This document shows, in pieces, positions 4,654-42,163 of a stretch of DNA of 43,171 nucleotides. Source of the stretch: a virus (Duplodnaviria > Heunggongvirae > Uroviricota > Caudoviricetes); the IMG/VR virus record IMGVR_UViG_2939121850_000002, positions 1 to 43,171 of that record, one strand, 5' to 3'. Within the stretch, counting starts at the first letter, position 1. Each line of letters opens with the position of its first letter. A model generated the notes under the pieces. That model was not told the DNA's origin. It ran no database searches and saw nothing but the letters and a program-made list of their open reading frames with translations. Position numbers and translations under genes: made by a program.

Positions 4654-4944
4654 TCATGATTTACTCTCCACGAACTGGTCAATAGCCATGCTAAGTGACA
4701 CACCTAAAGTCTCGATATGTTGCTGAATATCCTGTAGCGTCTGCGCCTGAGATAACAGGATTTCACGGTTGCATAATTCTTTAACCAGATGCTCAAACTT
4801 GCTGTAATAACCGATACGGCTTAGTGTTTCTTTCCCTGCATTCTCGCCTTCTTTTATAATTCCTCTTTCGCTAAGAATCAGATCGTGTTTGGTTCCGGTA
4901 ATAACGTATTTTCCGAGGTCGATGTTTAGCTTCATTGTTTTCAT
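4654..4944 (-). CDS. Hypothetical early-left protein (~96 aa)
   Basis: ORF in the operon; the internal Met at 4944 avoids overlap with the upstream gene. Confidence 0.4.
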
Positions 4945-4954
4945 TGTTAATTCC

Positions 4955-5248
4955 TCAGTCATTACTGATAGCGCCATAGCGTGAGCGGTAATTACGCAGG
5001 CGCGGGTCAATTTCAGGGAAGTGGGTATATGTGGCTTTGCGGAATGGTCGGATTGATGTCTGGTAAATTCGCTCGCGTTCTTCTTTCTCTGCAAGCCATA
5101 TACAGTGGCGAAATTCCTTTTCCTCTTTCGTTTCCTGCGGTAGCGACATTATCCGATCGTAGTTTTTTCTGAATTTATCCAGCACCTCCGATACGGAATT
5201 GCCGGAACAGCGGCGCGCGTCATCCGCACCATACAAAGGCGCTGGCAT
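4955..5248 (-). CDS. Hypothetical early-left protein (97 aa)
   Basis: ORF immediately downstream of ssb on the same strand. Confidence 0.4.
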   Translation of the reverse strand: MPAPLYGADDARRCSGNSVSEVLDKFRKNYDRIMSLPQETKEEKEFRHCIWLAEKEERERIYQTSIRPFRKATYTHFPEIDPRLRNYRSRYGAISND

Positions 5249-5261
5249 GTTTTTCTCCTGA

Positions 5262-5768
5262 TTAAATTGCGTGAATAGCGTGACGAGGGAAGGGGAGAGT
5301 TACTGGTGCAAAGGGTATATCGTCGTCAAAATCCATCGGAGGTTCGTTGTGTTGTGCTGGTGATGATTGCTGCTGTGGCTTCTGTGATTGCCTGCTGGCT
5401 GCTTGTTGTTTGCTGTCGCCAATGCCGCCAAGCATTTGCATCACGCCATTAATTCCGACATGAACCTCGGTTGTGTAACGGTCTTGCCCTGACTGGTCTT
5501 TCCACTTTCTGGTTCTCAGCATTCCCTCGAAATAAATCTGATCACCTTTTTTCACATACTGCCCCACGACCTCAGCCAGTTTCCCGGATACAGCAACACG
5601 ATGCCATTCAGTCAATTCCTTTTGCTCGCCAGTATTTTTATCTCGCCATTGTTCTGACGTGGCTATTGTCAGGTTAGCGAACGCTGTTCCTGATGGTGAG
5701 TATCGAACTTCCGGGTCTTGTCCTACCCGACCAAGGATAATCACCTTATTTATCCCGCGAGAACTCAT
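5262..5768 (-). CDS. ssb: Phage single-stranded DNA-binding protein (SSB) with an atypical 15-aa C-terminal extension
   Basis: OB-fold N-terminus ([20 protein letters not shown]), Gln/Pro-rich linker, MDFDDDIPF acidic tip; the frame then continues [15 protein letters not shown] before the stop. Confidence 0.85.
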
Positions 5769-6232
5769 TTGCTCCACCTCTTGCCAGTTTTTATGTTGCT
5801 TATAATTGATTGAGATACACCCATGTCTTTTGCTATCTTGTACTGACTCTCTTTTTCAGAGAGTCTTTTCCTAATTTCTATAACCTGCCACTCTGTTAAT
5901 TTTGCACCATGATGAGCATGACCTTTCTTGGCTCCACGATGCCTTCCTTTTGCTATCTTGTCGTCCATATTTTCTTGCGCGCTACCTAAAAAGAGATGTT
6001 CAGGATTAACGCAGCATGGGTTATCGCATTTGTGGCAAACCATCTTCCCAGATGGAATGGGGGAGTGATAAAGCTCAAAAGCAACCCGATGAGAAAGCAT
6101 TGTTACGCCAAAGGCTACAAATTTTGTGTATCCTCCTTTGTTTTTTGAATAGGTAGACTCCCAGCATCCTGTTGTTTCATTAACTTTGTAGCTGGACTCG
6201 AATCTTTTAATAATTCCGTCCAAGTGAGACAT
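5765..6232 (-). CDS. HNH homing endonuclease with C-terminal helix-turn-helix
   Basis: [21 protein letters not shown] motif plus a C-terminal HTH-like segment ([23 protein letters not shown]); inserted between the annealing protein gene and ssb. Confidence 0.75.
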
Positions 6233-6940
6233 TTATGCCGCCTGTTTTAGTTCGTTAACTCTGATGTTCATTACCTGAACGCATTTAGCCTGCGCCTCCT
6301 CGTTGCCAGCCATTAATTGCCAGTCACGCTGATAACGCTCGATGAGTTTTTTCTTGTCAGTTTCTGTTGACGCATAATCGCTGAAGTCTTTCAGGATTTG
6401 TTCGCAGTCAACCGATGGAGATTTCTGGTTGGTATTTTCTGGTGATGGTTTGTTATCTGATGCTGGGATTGCCCAGCCCGGCAGCGATGGAGGGAGCCAG
6501 TAAAATCCTGTTCCATCCTTCAGTTTTGCCCTGTGCCACCCCTGCTTTTTATCGAGAGATGTTTGTGCGAAACCTTCCTCAAGGTTATACAGATACCGAC
6601 CGATTCCCCATTGAACGGCAGCGCGCTTCATTGCACCGGAACGACCACCTTTGACGGCTTCTACCTGCGTGTTTTCAGCAGCATCCCATTTGGTTACCCA
6701 TTCGGAATCAATCTTTATTGATATGCCGCATTCAACGCCGCCGTTGTTGGGAATATCGCGGTATTCATTGCGCCATCCTGCTTTGCCGCAAACATCGTCC
6801 AGGCGTTTCATGATTGCCCGGTTCGTTACATAAGCCAGCACCATAGCCCACACCTTGCCATCGCGTGTTTTACCGCTTTGCTGTATTCGCCATTCGATAT
6901 CTTCAGGGCTGAATGGCTCATCGAATTTATTCAAATTCAT
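6233..6940 (-). CDS. Rad52/Rad22-family single-strand annealing protein (Sak-like recombinase)
   Basis: Resembles the Rad52 N-terminal domain (AYVTNRAIMKRLDDVCGKAGW ... AVQWGIGRYLY); occupies the bet/erf position of the early-left operon. Confidence 0.6.
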   Translation of the reverse strand: MNLNKFDEPFSPEDIEWRIQQSGKTRDGKVWAMVLAYVTNRAIMKRLDDVCGKAGWRNEYRDIPNNGGVECGISIKIDSEWVTKWDAAENTQVEAVKGGRSGAMKRAAVQWGIGRYLYNLEEGFAQTSLDKKQGWHRAKLKDGTGFYWLPPSLPGWAIPASDNKPSPENTNQKSPSVDCEQILKDFSDYASTETDKKKLIERYQRDWQLMAGNEEAQAKCVQVMNIRVNELKQAA

Positions 6941-7027
6941 AATTCACCTCAGAATGGACATGGCCCAAGGAAATAACGCTGATTTAATACTTCAGTCTTT
7001 GCCGCATTTAAAAATACGCGAACACCT

Positions 7028-7198
7028 TCACGATCTCCCTTCTGGCGATACATTAACGCCTGCTGCGTGTACATGCGTCTCTGTAACTTGCTCTCCTTCA
7101 CTGTGGTTGCAAGTGACATGCATATCTCCTTCGTTACCGATTAAATCTTTCATCTGACGAATGAATTCTTCGTCTGACCAGTTATCTGTAAAACTCAT
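7028..7198 (-). CDS. Small hypothetical protein at the kil position (57 aa)
   Basis: ATG at 7198 overlaps the cIII stop (ATGA); synteny only. Confidence 0.3.
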   Translation of the reverse strand: MSFTDNWSDEEFIRQMKDLIGNEGDMHVTCNHSEGEQVTETHVHAAGVNVSPEGRS

Positions 7199-7365
7199 GG
7201 ACGGCCTTGTTGTTTCAAAATATCCCAAAGCTTTTCGAGCAAACTTTTCATTCTTGGTTGTTTAAAGTCTGCTCCGGTTAAAATATTTTTTCGTGAATGC
7301 TGTACCGATAAAATCGGGTTGAAAGGGCGAACCGATGCCGCCCCTGCAATAGCGAACTGTTGCAT
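7195..7365 (-). CDS. cIII: CIII-like protein (56 aa), not in the ORF track because it is under 60 aa
   Basis: Hand translation: MQQFAIAGAASVRPFNPILSVQHSRKNILTGADFKQPRMKSLLEKLWDILKQQGRP. The MQ.AIAG N-terminus and central amphipathic helix resemble lambda CIII; AAGGAG RBS 6 nt upstream. Confidence 0.5.
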   Translation of the reverse strand: MQQFAIAGAASVRPFNPILSVQHSRKNILTGADFKQPRMKSLLEKLWDILKQQGRP

Positions 7366-7440: not shown

Positions 7441-7752
7441 TTAGGCGGCTGATGTTTCTTCTTTCAGGCTTTCGAGATATTTACGTGGGTCGTCGTAACA
7501 TTGGCATTCGCTGTACCAATCCACCCAGCGATCAGTAAGCCCCATCTCTGATAAATCTTCATCGGTAAGGCTCTCATCCCACATCTCAAGGCCGTTAGCA
7601 TTGCAGTAATCAGGCTTGATGTTGTTGTCATACTGAAAGGCGTCATAATCAGCCAGTGCGTCCATCAGGCGAACACCCTCTTCAACACTTGCCACTTCTA
7701 CAATGAACGGCTTCATAGGTACTTGCGGGATATGCCAGACACGTAATTTCAT
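7441..7752 (-). CDS. Hypothetical acidic early-left protein (104 aa)
   Basis: Start at 7752 is preceded by GGAGGA; no family recognised. Confidence 0.45.
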   Translation of the reverse strand: MKLRVWHIPQVPMKPFIVEVASVEEGVRLMDALADYDAFQYDNNIKPDYCNANGLEMWDESLTDEDLSEMGLTDRWVDWYSECQCYDDPRKYLESLKEETSAA

Positions 7753-7927
7753 ATATCCTCCATCAAAAAAATTGCCCTCACACTGGAGGGCAAAGAAGAT
7801 TTCCAATAATCAGAACAAGTCGGCTCCTGTTTAGTTACGAGCGACATTGCTCCGTGTATTCACTCGTTGGAATGAATACACAGTGCAATGTTTATTCTGT
7901 TGTTTATGCCAAAAATAAAGGCCACCA

Positions 7928-29404: not shown

Positions 29405-29899
29405 ATGATTTCACATGAAGAGTTGAAGCGTCATTTATCATATGACCCAGAAACCGGGGTTTTTACCCGAAAAATATCAAATACAGCGAGCGTCACCGTT
29501 GGTGATGAAGCGGGAACCATGTGCACTGGTTATTTAAGGATAATGGTCTGTGGTAAGAGATACTTAGCGCATAGGCTTGCTTGGTTTTATATGACAGGAA
29601 AACCTGCAAATTGCTTAATAGATCATATTAACGGAGACAGAACGGATAACAGATTTTCAAATTTAAGATTGGCAAATAGATCCCAGAATGGGATGAACAG
29701 GAATATTCAAAGAAATAATAAGTCAGGATATCCGGGTGTCTGTTGGCACAAAAATCTCTGCAAGTGGACTGTTTCTTTCAAGAAAAATAAAAAACAGGTT
29801 CACGTTGGATGCTTCGATGACCTGGACGAAGCTATCTCAGCATCAATGATGGCAAGAGCAGAAAATTTTGGAGAGTTTGCAAGGCAGAGGATTGAGTAA
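29405..29899 (+). CDS. HNH-AP2 homing endonuclease inserted between gp10 and gp26
   Basis: HNH motif ([42 protein letters not shown]) plus AP2-like domain ([10 protein letters not shown]...WTVSF...[14 protein letters not shown]); locally AT-rich. Confidence 0.75.
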
Positions 29900-40769: not shown

Positions 40770-41963
40770 TTAATCAACCTTCCCATCAAGCCAGTCCGCC
40801 CACCACTGCATCATTTCTCTGCGCTTATCGAGATACTGAGCATGGTTGTAAATTCCACGCACAGAACCGCCGTTGGCATGTGCTAGTTGCACTTCAATGG
40901 CGTCGGCAGGCCATTCGTGCTCGTTCATAATCGTGCTGAATTCATGCCTGAATCCGTGACCGCTTTCCAGACCTTCATAGCCGATTTGTTTGATCACAAG
41001 CAGTACCGCGTTCTCGCAGATTGGCTTCTTCTTATCGTTGCGCCCGGCAAAAACAAACTCTGAGACTGGTTTGGTTATTGAGCTTAGCGTAGTGAGAAGT
41101 TCAACCACCTGGTCTGACATCGGGACCACATGAATTTTGCGTCCCTTCATCACACTGGCGTCGATGGTGATAATCCTGTTTTCAAAATCGACGTTCTTCC
41201 ATAGCATGGAACGAAGCTCTTTCGTTCTTAGGGCTGTGTAGCGTAAAACTTTGGTCGCAATGAGCGATACGATACTTCCTGAAAATGTTGCCAGTGCTTT
41301 GTTGAATGCAGGGATCTGGTCTGCTGGAAGAAACGGGAAGTTCTTCTTGCGGTATCCTTTCATGGCGTCTGCAAGGTCAGGTGCCGGGTTATATTTAGCC
41401 CTTCCGGTGACAATAGCGTAACGAAAAACCTCGCCGCATCTTCTGCGGGCTTTGTTGGCTCGCTCCATTGCACCGCGATCTTCAAATCTGCGGATTACTT
41501 CCAGCAGTTGCATCGGCTCAATATCCTGAATCTCAAGACCGCCGATGATGGGTAAAATGTCGTCATCAAACATTTTGGCAAGTTCAGTTGCATAGCCTAC
41601 TGACCAGACTTGCTTCTTGTGCTCGTACCATTCCTTGTAAATCGCACTAAATGAATTGTTGTTAGACGAAGCCTTTTTCGCCTTTACCGGATCTATGCCA
41701 ACCGAGATGTCTTTCCTCGCAGTCCATGCCTTATCCCTTGCTTCCTGCAAAGTCATAAGCGGATATTTTCCGACAGTCAGGATTTTCTCCTTACCGTCAA
41801 TCTTGTAGCGAAGCTGCCATACCTTTTTCCCTGATACAGGGACATAAAGGTACAGGCCATTACCATCGAGAAGGCGGTATGGTTTTTCTTTCGGCTTTGC
41901 TGCTTCAATCTGCTTAACGGTGAGCATGGGTAAAAATCCGGTGGGTAAAATTATTTTATCCAC
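40770..41963 (-). CDS. intS: P4-type tyrosine integrase (IntS-like)
   Basis: N-terminus (LTVKQIEAAKPKEKPYRLLDGNGLYLYVPVSGKKVWQLRY) is typical of P4-family integrases; transcribed away from argW. Internal Met at 41927 may be the true start. Confidence 0.85.
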   Translation of the reverse strand: MDKIILPTGFLPMLTVKQIEAAKPKEKPYRLLDGNGLYLYVPVSGKKVWQLRYKIDGKEKILTVGKYPLMTLQEARDKAWTARKDISVGIDPVKAKKASSNNNSFSAIYKEWYEHKKQVWSVGYATELAKMFDDDILPIIGGLEIQDIEPMQLLEVIRRFEDRGAMERANKARRRCGEVFRYAIVTGRAKYNPAPDLADAMKGYRKKNFPFLPADQIPAFNKALATFSGSIVSLIATKVLRYTALRTKELRSMLWKNVDFENRIITIDASVMKGRKIHVVPMSDQVVELLTTLSSITKPVSEFVFAGRNDKKKPICENAVLLVIKQIGYEGLESGHGFRHEFSTIMNEHEWPADAIEVQLAHANGGSVRGIYNHAQYLDKRREMMQWWADWLDGKVD

Positions 41964-42088
41964 TTTTTACCCGTCATGGAGTGCGGCTGTCAACGATCTG
42001 ACGCGAACCATTACGAACTGTTAATCTACGGAAGGCTTGATATTCAGGGGATTTTGCGGACTGGTACGGATGGGAGCGAACTGATAAA

Positions 42089-42103
42089 TGGCGTCCCCTG
42101 CAG
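42089..42103. repeat. Prophage attachment core, right copy, forming the 3' end of argW
   Basis: tggcgtcccctgcag; partner of 1312-1326. Confidence 0.6.
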
Positions 42104-42163
42104 GAATCGAACCTGCAATTAGCCCTTAGGAGGGGCTCGTTATATCCATTTAACTAAGAGGAC
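42089..42163 (-). tRNA. argW: tRNA-Arg (anticodon CCU)
   Basis: 75-nt cloverleaf on the minus strand: acceptor GTCCTCT/AGGGGAC, anticodon loop CTCCTAA, T-arm GCAGG-TTCGATT-CCTGC, encoded CCA end. Confidence 0.9.

What the first reader, a model, noticed from the sequence alone, without database searches (positions are those of the whole stretch)
5765..6232. Second, unrelated HNH endonuclease wedged between the annealing protein gene and ssb
An HNH nuclease ([15 protein letters not shown]) with a C-terminal HTH is coupled into the recombination module by start/stop overlaps on both sides. No exo-type 5'-3' exonuclease partner for the Rad52-like annealing protein is evident, so this HNH may be a homing element or may have been co-opted as the nuclease partner.
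Basis: partly seen in the sequence, partly recalled or inferred. Interest (0 to 1): 0.4.

Follow-up and report, generated by a model that had tools for sequence, protein, structure and literature searches.

The report
Mobile HNH nuclease cassette inside ssb
The HNH gene between the annealing-protein gene and ssb is most likely a selfish homing-endonuclease cassette that inserted into the first codons of the phage ssb gene and carries replacement codons for it; it is probably not the missing nuclease partner of the recombinase.

Summary
The ORF at 5765-6232 (minus strand, 155 aa) is a real gene. It has an N-terminal HNH_3 His-Me finger nuclease domain and a C-terminal three-helix HTH. It sits in the PL operon of a P22/HK75-like prophage between a Rad52-type annealing protein and ssb.

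Phage HK75 has 99% identical flanks but no HNH, and there the SSAP stop directly abuts the ssb ATG. Only about 10-15% of homologous junctions carry the HNH. In every HNH+ allele, ssb nt 4-16 are recoded (AGTTCTCGCGGGA instead of GCAAGCAGAGGCG; MASRGV becomes MSSRGI). No HNH-free allele has this patch.

The same 477-nt cassette, at least 98.7% identical between copies, sits on ssb haplotypes that differ at 31% of sites. Each of those haplotypes also occurs without the cassette.

All relatives examined at 51-74% identity (Cronobacter/Citrobacter, Vibrio phage, Shewanella and others) also abut ssb, whatever gene lies upstream. A Vibrio phage pair shows the insertion footprint: the old ssb start is left as a stub, followed by the HNH and then a new ssb start.

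The closest solved folds are the homing endonucleases I-HmuI and I-PpoI. Abc2 (anti-RecBCD) lies just downstream, so the lack of an exonuclease is normal for this module type.

Verdict: a free-standing homing endonuclease aimed at the ssb 5' end. Cleavage was not tested.

The parts
5765..6232 (-). HNH_3-HTH endonuclease ORF (155 aa). The predicted beta-beta-alpha-Me core is beta 64-67, beta 80-83 and helix 85-94, with invariant H67, N76 and N88. Invariant C23, C69, C74 and H79, plus C66 conserved in at least 90% of the sequences, may form a zinc site. The C-terminal HTH spans residues 114-149.
5753..6229 (-). Cassette-specific DNA of 477 nt. It replaces 13 nt (GCAAGCAGAGGCG) of HNH-free alleles. 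The left edge is just after the ATG that is the ssb start in empty alleles. The right edge is after ssb nt 16.
   Evidence: Alignment with HK75; 43 HNH+ and 74 HNH- loci, not all distinct, with identical boundaries
5753..5768 (-). Surrogate ssb 5' end carried by the cassette: ATG AGT TCT CGC GGG A (MSSRGI). HNH-free alleles read ATG GCA AGC AGA GGC G (MASRGV). Nine of 13 nt differ, and Ser3 and Arg4 use different codon families.
   Evidence: same arrangement in Vibrio phage 1.079.O
5772..5780 (-). New Shine-Dalgarno for ssb (GAGGTGGAG), embedded in the last codons of the HNH ORF. The HNH itself uses the ATG position and upstream context that serve ssb in empty alleles.
   Evidence: read from the sequence; function inferred
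6233..6940 (-). Rad52/Rad22-type single-strand annealing protein (235 aa). Its stop codon abuts the HNH ATG.
   Evidence: Pfam Rad52_Rad22 E 4.8e-26, PHROG 1097 E 3e-130
5262..5768 (-). Phage ssb (168 aa) and presumed target gene. Its first 16 nt come from the cassette. From nt 17 on it is identical to HNH-free alleles of the same haplotype.
   Evidence: Pfam SSB E 1.7e-36
4955..5248 (-). abc2 (anti-RecBCD protein 2). It accounts for the absence of a phage exonuclease in this module type.
   Evidence: Pfam Anti-RecBCD_p2 E 5.6e-63; PMC12315714

Best explanation
The HNH gene is a free-standing, intron-less homing-endonuclease cassette specialised for the 5' end of ssb genes.

Shown by the sequences:
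- The cassette is a discrete 477-nt unit. It holds the HNH-HTH ORF, a new ribosome-binding site, and a recoded copy of ssb codons 1-6.
- It sits inside the start of ssb, with its right boundary after ssb nt 16.
- The HNH uses the ATG position that serves ssb in empty alleles, so ssb stays intact and translationally coupled.
- It has no promoter of its own and rides the PL operon.

Inferred:
- During lytic growth, or when two related phages or prophages meet, the enzyme binds through its HTH. It then nicks or cuts HNH-free ssb alleles at or near codons 2-6 (...ATGGCAAGCAGAGGCGTAAA...).
- The break is repaired by recombination from the HNH+ genome. This copies the cassette together with its recoded ssb start.
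- The recoded start protects the carrier from its own enzyme.

The gene is not the exonuclease partner of the Rad52-type annealing protein. In this module that role is covered by the Abc2 and RecBCD arrangement typical of P22/HK75-type modules.
For: (1) Empty site. HK75 has 99.2% identical flanks, and there the SSAP TAA directly abuts the ssb ATG.

(2) Sporadic occurrence. The HNH is in 10 of 80 SSAP-sampled IMG/VR loci. It is in 40 E. coli genomes against 257-406 with the junction. No E. coli-type cassette turned up in 50,697 phage records.

(3) Perfect linkage. All HNH+ alleles carry the recoded ssb nt 4-16 and none of 74 HNH-free loci do. From nt 17 on, the alleles are identical.

(4) Mobility. 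HNH copies are 98.7-100% identical in nucleotides, while the linked ssb falls to 68% and the SSAP to 95.5%. The cassette sits on ssb haplotypes A and B, which differ at 97 of 314 sites. Both haplotypes also occur without the cassette. It is also found on all three ssb protein classes.

(5) The linkage is to ssb, not to the SSAP. All relatives examined at 51-74% identity abut or overlap ssb. The upstream gene is variously Rad52-type, a different SSAP, ERF, RdgC/FtsK_gamma, Sipho_Gp157 or an unknown gene. The 44% relative looked up and most relatives at or below 48% are not next to ssb.

(6) Insertion footprint. Vibrio phage 1.079.O (HNH+) can be compared with 1.003.O (HNH-free, 96.8% identical flanks). 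The original ssb start ATGGCATCACGCGG remains as a 12-codon stub upstream of the HNH. A new start, ATGAGTAGTAGAGGGATA, follows the HNH.

(7) The protein is maintained. pN is 0.19 against pS 0.80 between clades, and there are 7 synonymous and 0 non-synonymous changes within the 74% clade. The candidate catalytic residues H67, N76 and N88 are invariant in 67 homologues.

(9) The same prophage carries a second sporadic HNH_3 insertion between virion genes.

(10) Precedent from the literature. T4 free-standing HEGs are promoterless cassettes in polycistronic messages. SegG sits next to gene 32, the T4 ssDNA-binding protein gene, and targets it (PMC2988022).
Against: No cleavage, nicking or super-Mendelian inheritance has been shown, and the target site is inferred only from the insertion point and the recoding.

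Spread across ssb haplotypes could come from ordinary homologous recombination among mosaic lambdoid prophages without any nuclease action. A/B chimeric ssb alleles also occur without the HNH.

The recoded patch might simply be a remnant of the donor's ssb rather than a selected immunity change. The Vibrio version keeps AGT AGA at codons 3-4, close to the uninvaded type.

Purifying selection is also compatible with a function useful to the phage.

Confidence: 0.7

Rival explanations
1. Competition weapon or addiction-like module. The enzyme's main benefit would be to the carrier phage. It would cut the conserved ssb start of co-infecting or resident rival phages, of plasmids, and possibly of the host chromosome, while the phage expresses its own immune ssb. 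Homing would be a by-product.
For: The core AGCAGAGGCGTAAA around the insertion point is identical in HNH-free phage ssb and in the E. coli K-12 chromosomal ssb. The protein is under purifying selection. A phage intron endonuclease with an interference-competition role has been reported (PMC11620839; abstract seen).
Against: There are no activity data, and the specificity of the enzyme is unknown. The cassette is carried by only 10-15% of junctions and is absent from all phage records in the database, which does not suggest a strong advantage. The PL operon is repressed in lysogens, so any effect would be limited to lytic growth.
Confidence: 0.15
2. Co-opted Rec-module nuclease. The HNH would make the nicks or ends on which the Rad52-type annealing protein and SSB act, replacing a lambda-Exo/RecE-type partner.
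For: The gene is tightly packed inside the Rec module with translational coupling. No Exo/RecE/YqaJ gene is present. The authors of a recent survey consider the ES18-type HNH genes of Rec modules to be likely true members (PMC12315714).
Against: 85-90% of otherwise near-identical modules lack it, including those of sequenced phages such as HK75, mEp235 and Sf6. Its relatives keep ssb as the neighbour while the upstream recombination gene changes or is absent. It is unrelated to the ES18/Sf6 gp26-type nuclease and occupies a different slot. Abc2 is present. The recoded ssb patch has no explanation under this model.
Confidence: 0.07
3. Inactive or decaying relic. An old insertion that no longer cuts anything and is carried along passively by recombination among mosaic prophages.
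For: No activity is known. No cultured phage record carries it. One truncated 119-aa copy exists (P0007). Ordinary recombination does shuffle ssb alleles.
Against: The ORF is full-length in all 23 distinct E. coli-type loci. HNH copies are at least 98.7% identical in nucleotides. The candidate catalytic residues are invariant. There is strong purifying selection between and within clades.
Confidence: 0.08

Closest known systems
Free-standing HNH homing endonucleases of T-even phages (MobA, MobE)
   Same: [quoted passage not shown] Both are promoterless cassettes wedged between conserved genes in the same orientation, and both are sporadic among relatives. They are thought to spread by break-induced gene conversion (PMC2988022).
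   Different: There is no detectable close sequence relationship, and the Pfam subfamily here is HNH_3. T4 free-standing enzymes usually cut hundreds of bp from their own gene. Here the insertion lies inside the first codons of the presumed target gene, and the cassette brings replacement codons and a new RBS for that gene. The host is a temperate lambdoid/P22-like prophage.
T4 SegG (GIY-YIG), inserted between genes 32 and 59 and targeting gene 32
   Same: A free-standing homing endonuclease gene sitting directly beside the phage ssDNA-binding protein gene, which it targets. Expression signals for the downstream essential gene are embedded in the endonuclease ORF (PMC2988022).
   Different: The nuclease family differs (GIY-YIG versus HNH). 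SegG carries promoters for gene 32, whereas this cassette carries an RBS plus the first six codons of ssb.
I-HmuI (PDB 1U3E), HNH nicking homing endonuclease of Bacillus phage SPO1
   Different: I-HmuI is encoded in a group I intron, while this gene is free-standing. Identity over the structural alignment is only 16-18%. The present protein has an invariant Cys/His cluster that resembles the zinc-binding I-PpoI type (Pfam zf-His_Me_endon E 1.8e-4, below cut-off).
ES18 / Sf6 gp26-type 'HNH' nuclease genes of lambdoid Rec modules (PMC12315714)
   Same: A small nuclease gene tightly packed into the same SSAP-ssb-abc2 module of P22-like and lambdoid phages.
   Different: The slot differs (between ssb and abc2). 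There is no sequence similarity (BLASTP E 17, no Pfam hit). In the window that gene has been deleted, leaving its last 14 codons fused to ssb.
AP2-associated HNH HEGs (IPA-HNH; Barth et al. 2023, PMC10448857)
   Same: A phage HEG class with an HNH_3-like core, found near or within essential genes. The window's other HNH (29405-29899) has this HNH_3+AP2 architecture.
   Different: The HNH studied here carries an HTH instead of AP2, and it is tied specifically to ssb.

Membership tests
HNH / His-Me finger nucleases, Pfam HNH_3 (PF13392) | Significant match to the family profile above the curated cut-off | tested here: met
   51 bits against a cut-off of 24.8, E 1.1e-13, residues 48-89
HNH / His-Me finger nucleases, Pfam HNH_3 (PF13392) | Beta-beta-alpha-metal core with a conserved His at the end of strand 1 and Asn/His metal ligands | tested here: met
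   The AF2 model (pLDDT 90.4) has beta 64-67, beta 80-83 and helix 85-94. H67, N76, H79 and N88 are invariant in 67 homologues. This rests on a predicted structure only.
HNH / His-Me finger nucleases, Pfam HNH_3 (PF13392) | Metal-dependent DNA nicking or cleavage | not testable with these tools
   Needs purified protein
Free-standing homing endonuclease genes (intronless homing) | Presence/absence polymorphism at one precise site between otherwise near-identical genomes | tested here: met
   HK75 empty site at 99.2% flank identity. 10 of 80 IMG/VR loci and about 40 E. coli genomes are occupied. Vibrio phage pair 1.079.O / 1.003.O.
Free-standing homing endonuclease genes (intronless homing) | Sequence differences at the presumed target next to the insertion that distinguish carrier from non-carrier alleles | tested here: met
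   ssb nt 4-16 differ at 9 of 13 positions in every HNH+ allele and in no HNH-free allele. That these changes confer immunity is inferred.
Free-standing homing endonuclease genes (intronless homing) | Evidence of horizontal movement: the element is less diverged than its flanks and occurs on several backgrounds that also exist empty | tested here: met
   HNH 98.7-100% against ssb down to 68%. ssb haplotypes A and B each occur with and without the cassette.
Free-standing homing endonuclease genes (intronless homing) | Site-specific cleavage of the element-free allele and resistance of the carrier allele | not testable with these tools
   In vitro cleavage mapping is needed
Free-standing homing endonuclease genes (intronless homing) | Super-Mendelian inheritance with co-conversion in crosses, dependent on the catalytic residues | not testable with these tools
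   Phage crosses are needed. The chimeric ssb alleles seen here are not specific to HNH+ loci.
I-HmuI-like intron-encoded HNH nicking endonucleases | N-terminal HNH domain plus C-terminal HTH DNA-binding domain | tested here: met
   Model and fold searches; weak HTH_38 match
I-HmuI-like intron-encoded HNH nicking endonucleases | Encoded within a self-splicing group I intron of the target gene | tested here: inconclusive
   No intron search was run. The ORF is translationally coupled between two ORFs, and ssb is restored by a duplicated, recoded 5' end rather than by splicing. The gene is therefore not filed as a member.
SSAP-partner exonucleases (lambda Exo / YqaJ, RecE) | PD-(D/E)XK YqaJ-like or RecE fold | tested here: not met
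   Only HNH_3 and HTH matches were found, and the fold matches I-PpoI and I-HmuI
SSAP-partner exonucleases (lambda Exo / YqaJ, RecE) | Consistent co-occurrence with the cognate annealing protein | tested here: not met
   It is absent from 85-90% of modules with the same SSAP. Its relatives are found with unrelated upstream genes.

The most novel reading that the evidence does not exclude
The enzyme recognises the near-universal gamma-proteobacterial ssb start (MASRGVNKV coding sequence). The 14-nt core of that sequence is identical in rival lambdoid phages and in the host chromosomal ssb. The cassette would then act as a paired 'cutter plus immune essential gene' module. During lytic growth it would break the ssb genes of competitors and perhaps the host, while the phage runs on its own recoded ssb. 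That would make it an inter-element weapon, and a route by which an HEG could hop between phage, plasmid and chromosomal ssb genes across genera.
Probability: 0.12. Interest if true: 0.6.

Novelty: new member of a known kind. Interest (0 to 1): 0.3.

Why it matters
It settles what this gene most probably is: a selfish mobile nuclease, not a recombination-module component.

It also gives a concrete, testable target prediction, namely the first six codons of ssb.

It adds a caution to current classifications of lambdoid recombination modules that count tightly packed HNH genes as functional members (PMC12315714).

It is a clean example in temperate enterobacterial phages of a homing endonuclease that inserts inside a conserved gene and brings its own replacement 5' end and ribosome-binding site. 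The same design recurs from E. coli to Vibrio and Shewanella.

If the enzyme really recognises the conserved ssb start, it could serve as a marker of phage-phage gene conversion, and its specificity might be exploitable.

Tried and rejected
- A sequence search of the protein against PDB gave no significant hit (best E 0.038, a designed protein). Fold searches were needed instead.
- Megablast of the HNH DNA against 50,697 phage records found nothing.
Only 2 of the 92 distant loci examined abut ssb, so it did not extend the close clade.
- I looked for A-to-B chimeric ssb alleles as a homing-specific co-conversion signature. Such chimeras also occur in HNH-free loci, so I do not use them as evidence.
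- I searched E. coli genomes for a precise-excision allele (SSAP end joined to the recoded ssb start). The 25 best matches listed all still contain the HNH, and I could not inspect the other 375 records that matched.
- The promoter and terminator scan of 4900-7300 found no more sites than shuffled sequence and nothing on the coding strand inside the cassette.
- I considered whether the window's HNH is the ES18/Sf6-type Rec-module HNH. I rejected this because there is no similarity and the slot is different.
- I considered the GTG at 5777 as the ssb start. I rejected it in favour of the ATG at 5768, on the basis of the SD position, the SSB N-terminus consensus and the relatives' annotation.

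Full report
**What is there**

The window is a P22/HK75-like lambdoid prophage. It is integrated next to tRNA-Arg(CCT) (42089-42163) and flanked by host genes. Its early-left operon runs on the minus strand in this order:
- gp17 superinfection-exclusion gene (7441-7806) and small ORFs;
- a Rad52/Rad22-type annealing protein (6233-6940; Pfam E 4.8e-26);
- the ORF in question (5765-6232; 155 aa);
- ssb (5262-5768; Pfam E 1.7e-36);
- abc2 anti-RecBCD (4955-5248; Pfam E 5.6e-63);
- DUF5405, DUF2737, Ead/Ea22, Lar and a dATP/dGTP pyrophosphohydrolase-DUF551 gene.

The ORF matches Pfam HNH_3 (E 1.1e-13, above the curated cut-off) and several PHROG HNH endonuclease families. Its motif [15 protein letters not shown] is at residues 66-80.

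An AlphaFold model built on 67 homologues is confident (mean pLDDT 90.4). It shows a beta-beta-alpha core (beta 64-67, beta 80-83, helix 85-94) followed by a three-helix C-terminal domain. H67, N76, H79, N88 and a set of cysteines are invariant across the homologues.

**Check of the observation**

The description is correct apart from two details. The SSAP stop TAA abuts the HNH ATG rather than overlapping it. Only the HNH stop and the true ssb ATG (5768) overlap, as ATGA. The other HNH of the window (29405-29899) belongs to the same Pfam family, HNH_3, though with an AP2 domain, and it is only remotely similar.

**The empty site and the cassette**

Phage HK75 carries the same SSAP, ssb and abc2 at 99.2% identity but has no HNH. 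There the SSAP TAA is followed directly by the ssb ATG.

The alignment shows that the window has 477 nt (5753-6229) where HK75 has 13 nt. The shared ATG after the SSAP stop is the ssb start in HK75 and the HNH start in the window.

The last codons of the HNH ORF contain a strong Shine-Dalgarno (GAGGTGGAG). After it comes a new ssb start, ATG AGT TCT CGC GGG ATA, in place of ATG GCA AGC AGA GGC GTA. The N-terminus changes from MASRGV to MSSRGI. Ser3 and Arg4 keep their amino acid but use different codon families. From ssb nt 17 onward the two genomes are the same.

**Population data**

I sampled 80 IMG/VR loci by the SSAP, not by the HNH. Ten carry the HNH and 70 have the direct SSAP-ssb junction.

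In 5,426 complete E. coli genomes, 40 carry the HNH at 95% identity or more, 39 of them at 99% or more. Between 257 and 406 genomes carry the junction. No record in the phage collection has this DNA.

I pooled the loci fetched up to that point; some contigs were fetched twice. All 43 HNH+ loci have the recoded start, and none of the 74 HNH-free loci has it.

Among 23 distinct HNH+ loci, the HNH is 98.7-100% identical in nucleotides. The linked ssb OB-fold region falls to 68% and the SSAP to 95.5%.

The two main ssb haplotypes differ at 97 of 314 sites. Each occurs with and without the cassette in otherwise identical form. On haplotype B, the switch to recipient-type sequence lies within 13 nt of the cassette edge.

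The three ssb protein classes (168, 171 and 157 aa) are all found with and without the cassette.

The uninvaded state, MASRGV, is the general SSB N-terminus and is also that of the host gene. No HNH-free allele carries the patch. The HNH-free alleles are therefore uninvaded sites, not products of HNH loss.

**Relatives**

All relatives examined at 51-74% identity are immediately upstream of ssb with overlapping or abutting stop and start codons. The upstream gene varies:
- Cronobacter/Citrobacter-type prophages, 74% identity: a Rad52-type SSAP at 64% identity, or a different SSAP sharing only its C-terminal region.
- Vibrio phage 1.079.O, 62%: an ERF-family protein.
- Shewanella algae, 60%: an unknown protein.
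- A 59-60% relative: an RdgC/FtsK_gamma protein.
- A 51% relative: Sipho_Gp157. The downstream ORF is cut by the contig end but begins MSKRGINRVILVGNI, an SSB-like N-terminus.

The 44% relative that I looked up lies in a T7-like context without ssb. Of 92 distant relatives (36-48% identity), only two abut ssb, both from Rhodobacterales. The constant partner is therefore ssb, not the annealing protein.

**The Vibrio phage pair**

Phage 1.003.O has 96.8% identical flanks and no HNH. Its ssb starts ATGGCATCACGCGGCGTTAATAAAGTAATT.

In 1.079.O, the first 14 nt of that start remain in place, now heading a 12-codon stub. Then come a short spacer, the HNH, and a second start, ATGAGTAGTAGAGGGATA. After that the sequences rejoin at AATAAAGTAATT.

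The element was therefore inserted inside ssb at about codon 5/6 and brought a surrogate ssb 5' end. The right-hand boundary (GGGATA|AATAA) is the same in E. coli. In the enterobacterial version the stub has been lost, and the HNH start coincides with the old ssb ATG.

Several clade members have N-termini reading MA(A/S/T)(R/K)G, like the SSB N-terminus MASRG. This may reflect capture of the original ssb start codons, but that reading is only suggestive.

**Selection**

Between the E. coli clade and the 74% clade, synonymous sites are saturated (pS 0.80) and pN is 0.19. Within the 74% clade there are 7 synonymous and 0 non-synonymous differences. The protein is being maintained.

**Interpretation**

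These are the hallmarks of a free-standing homing endonuclease gene:
- precise presence/absence polymorphism;
- location in a conserved gene;
- a promoterless cassette in the host operon (no promoter or terminator signal on the coding strand);
- carrier-specific changes at the presumed target;
- an element younger than its flanks and present on several backgrounds;
- a fold shared with known homing enzymes.

The steps that remain inferred are recognition and nicking or cutting of the uninvaded ssb start, break repair from the carrier genome, and immunity conferred by the recoded codons.

T4 offers close precedents. Its Mob genes are free-standing HNH elements. SegG lies beside gene 32, the T4 ssDNA-binding protein gene, and targets it, with expression signals for gene 32 embedded in segG (PMC2988022).

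**The 'missing nuclease partner' idea**

The evidence does not support this idea, for four reasons:
- abc2 is present.
- According to a 2025 survey of lambdoid Rec modules, P22 and HK620 modules encode no nuclease, and 84 of 246 modules lack one. The HK75 type is defined as anti-RecBCD + SSB + SAP without a nuclease (PMC12315714).
- That survey treats the ES18-type HNH genes, which lie between ssb and abc2, as likely true module members while warning about HNH mobility. The window's HNH is unrelated to that type and sits in a different slot.
- In the window, the ES18/Sf6-type gene has been deleted. The last 14 residues of the window's SSB ([14 protein letters not shown]) are identical to the C-terminus of Sf6 gp26.

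**Limits**

Nothing here shows enzymatic activity or biased inheritance. Ordinary recombination among mosaic prophages could move the cassette passively, and chimeric ssb alleles are not confined to HNH+ loci. The recoded patch may be a remnant of a donor ssb rather than a selected immunity change; the Vibrio version differs at codons 3-4. The fold-search scores are modest.

An open and more interesting possibility follows from the target sequence. The core AGCAGAGGCGTAAA is shared with the host chromosomal ssb, so the enzyme might also act on host or rival ssb genes.

**Verdict**

This is an ordinary kind of element, a free-standing HNH homing endonuclease. It appears here as a previously undescribed, ssb-specific lineage with a neat surrogate-5'-end design. 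It is annotated in RefSeq only as 'HNH endonuclease'. I rate interest as modest.

Noticed in passing
window 5265-5306 (ssb C-terminus), compared with L004:1811-2290 (Sf6 gp26): The window's SSB (168 aa) does not end at the canonical ...DDDIPF tip. It continues with [15 protein letters not shown]. The last 14 of these residues are identical to the C-terminus of Sf6 gp26, the Zn-ribbon nuclease encoded between ssb and abc2 in Sf6/ES18-type modules. The HK75/window-type ssb therefore looks like a fusion left by deletion of that nuclease gene. The protein-interaction tip of SSB is no longer C-terminal.
   Followed up: partly
window 29405-29899 (+): A second HNH_3 endonuclease, with an AP2 domain, lies between the head-completion gene 10 and tail-needle gene 26 homologues. 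Most relatives (HK620, CUS-3, IME10, Huey and others) match the flanks at 92-96% but lack about 497 nt there. Only vB_EcoP-683R2 has it. This is a second sporadic, HEG-like insertion in the same prophage.
   Followed up: partly
window 40770-42163 and 1400-1600: A P4-type integrase (40770-41963, -) lies beside tRNA-Arg(CCT) (42089-42163, -) at the right prophage end, next to the tailspike gene. The early-left operon ends at the opposite prophage end with a small DNA-binding-like ORF (1400-1600) and no adjacent integrase. In the circular phage, the attachment site would therefore lie between the end of the PL operon and int.
   Followed up: no
phage collection versus E. coli genomes: The E. coli-type HNH cassette occupies about 10-15% of SSAP-ssb junctions in E. 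coli chromosomes and IMG/VR prophage contigs. It has no megablast match in 50,697 phage records, although 228 of those records match the surrounding module. This could be sampling bias, or carriers may rarely be recovered as plaque-forming phages.
   Followed up: no
L211:626-655 (E. coli K-12 chromosomal ssb start): The host ssb starts ATGGCCAGCAGAGGCGTAAACAAGG. It shares the 14-nt core AGCAGAGGCGTAAA with the uninvaded phage ssb start, which is the presumed target of the HNH. The host gene could therefore be a substrate.
   Followed up: partly
L002:1814-2362 (mEp235), L003:1808-2275 (Huey), L004:1811-2290 (Sf6): The slot between ssb and abc2 varies between relatives. It is empty in HK75 and in the window. 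It holds an Rv2179c-like 3'-5' exonuclease in mEp235, mEpX2 and epsilon34. It holds an unrelated Cys-rich nuclease with no Pfam match in Sf6, Huey and ES18.
   Followed up: partly
P0005, P0009, P0013-P0017 (HNH relatives): Several ssb-linked HNH relatives begin MA(A/S/T)(R/K)G..., resembling the SSB N-terminus MASRG. This may mean that the HNH ORF captured the original ssb start codons at the insertion point.
   Followed up: no
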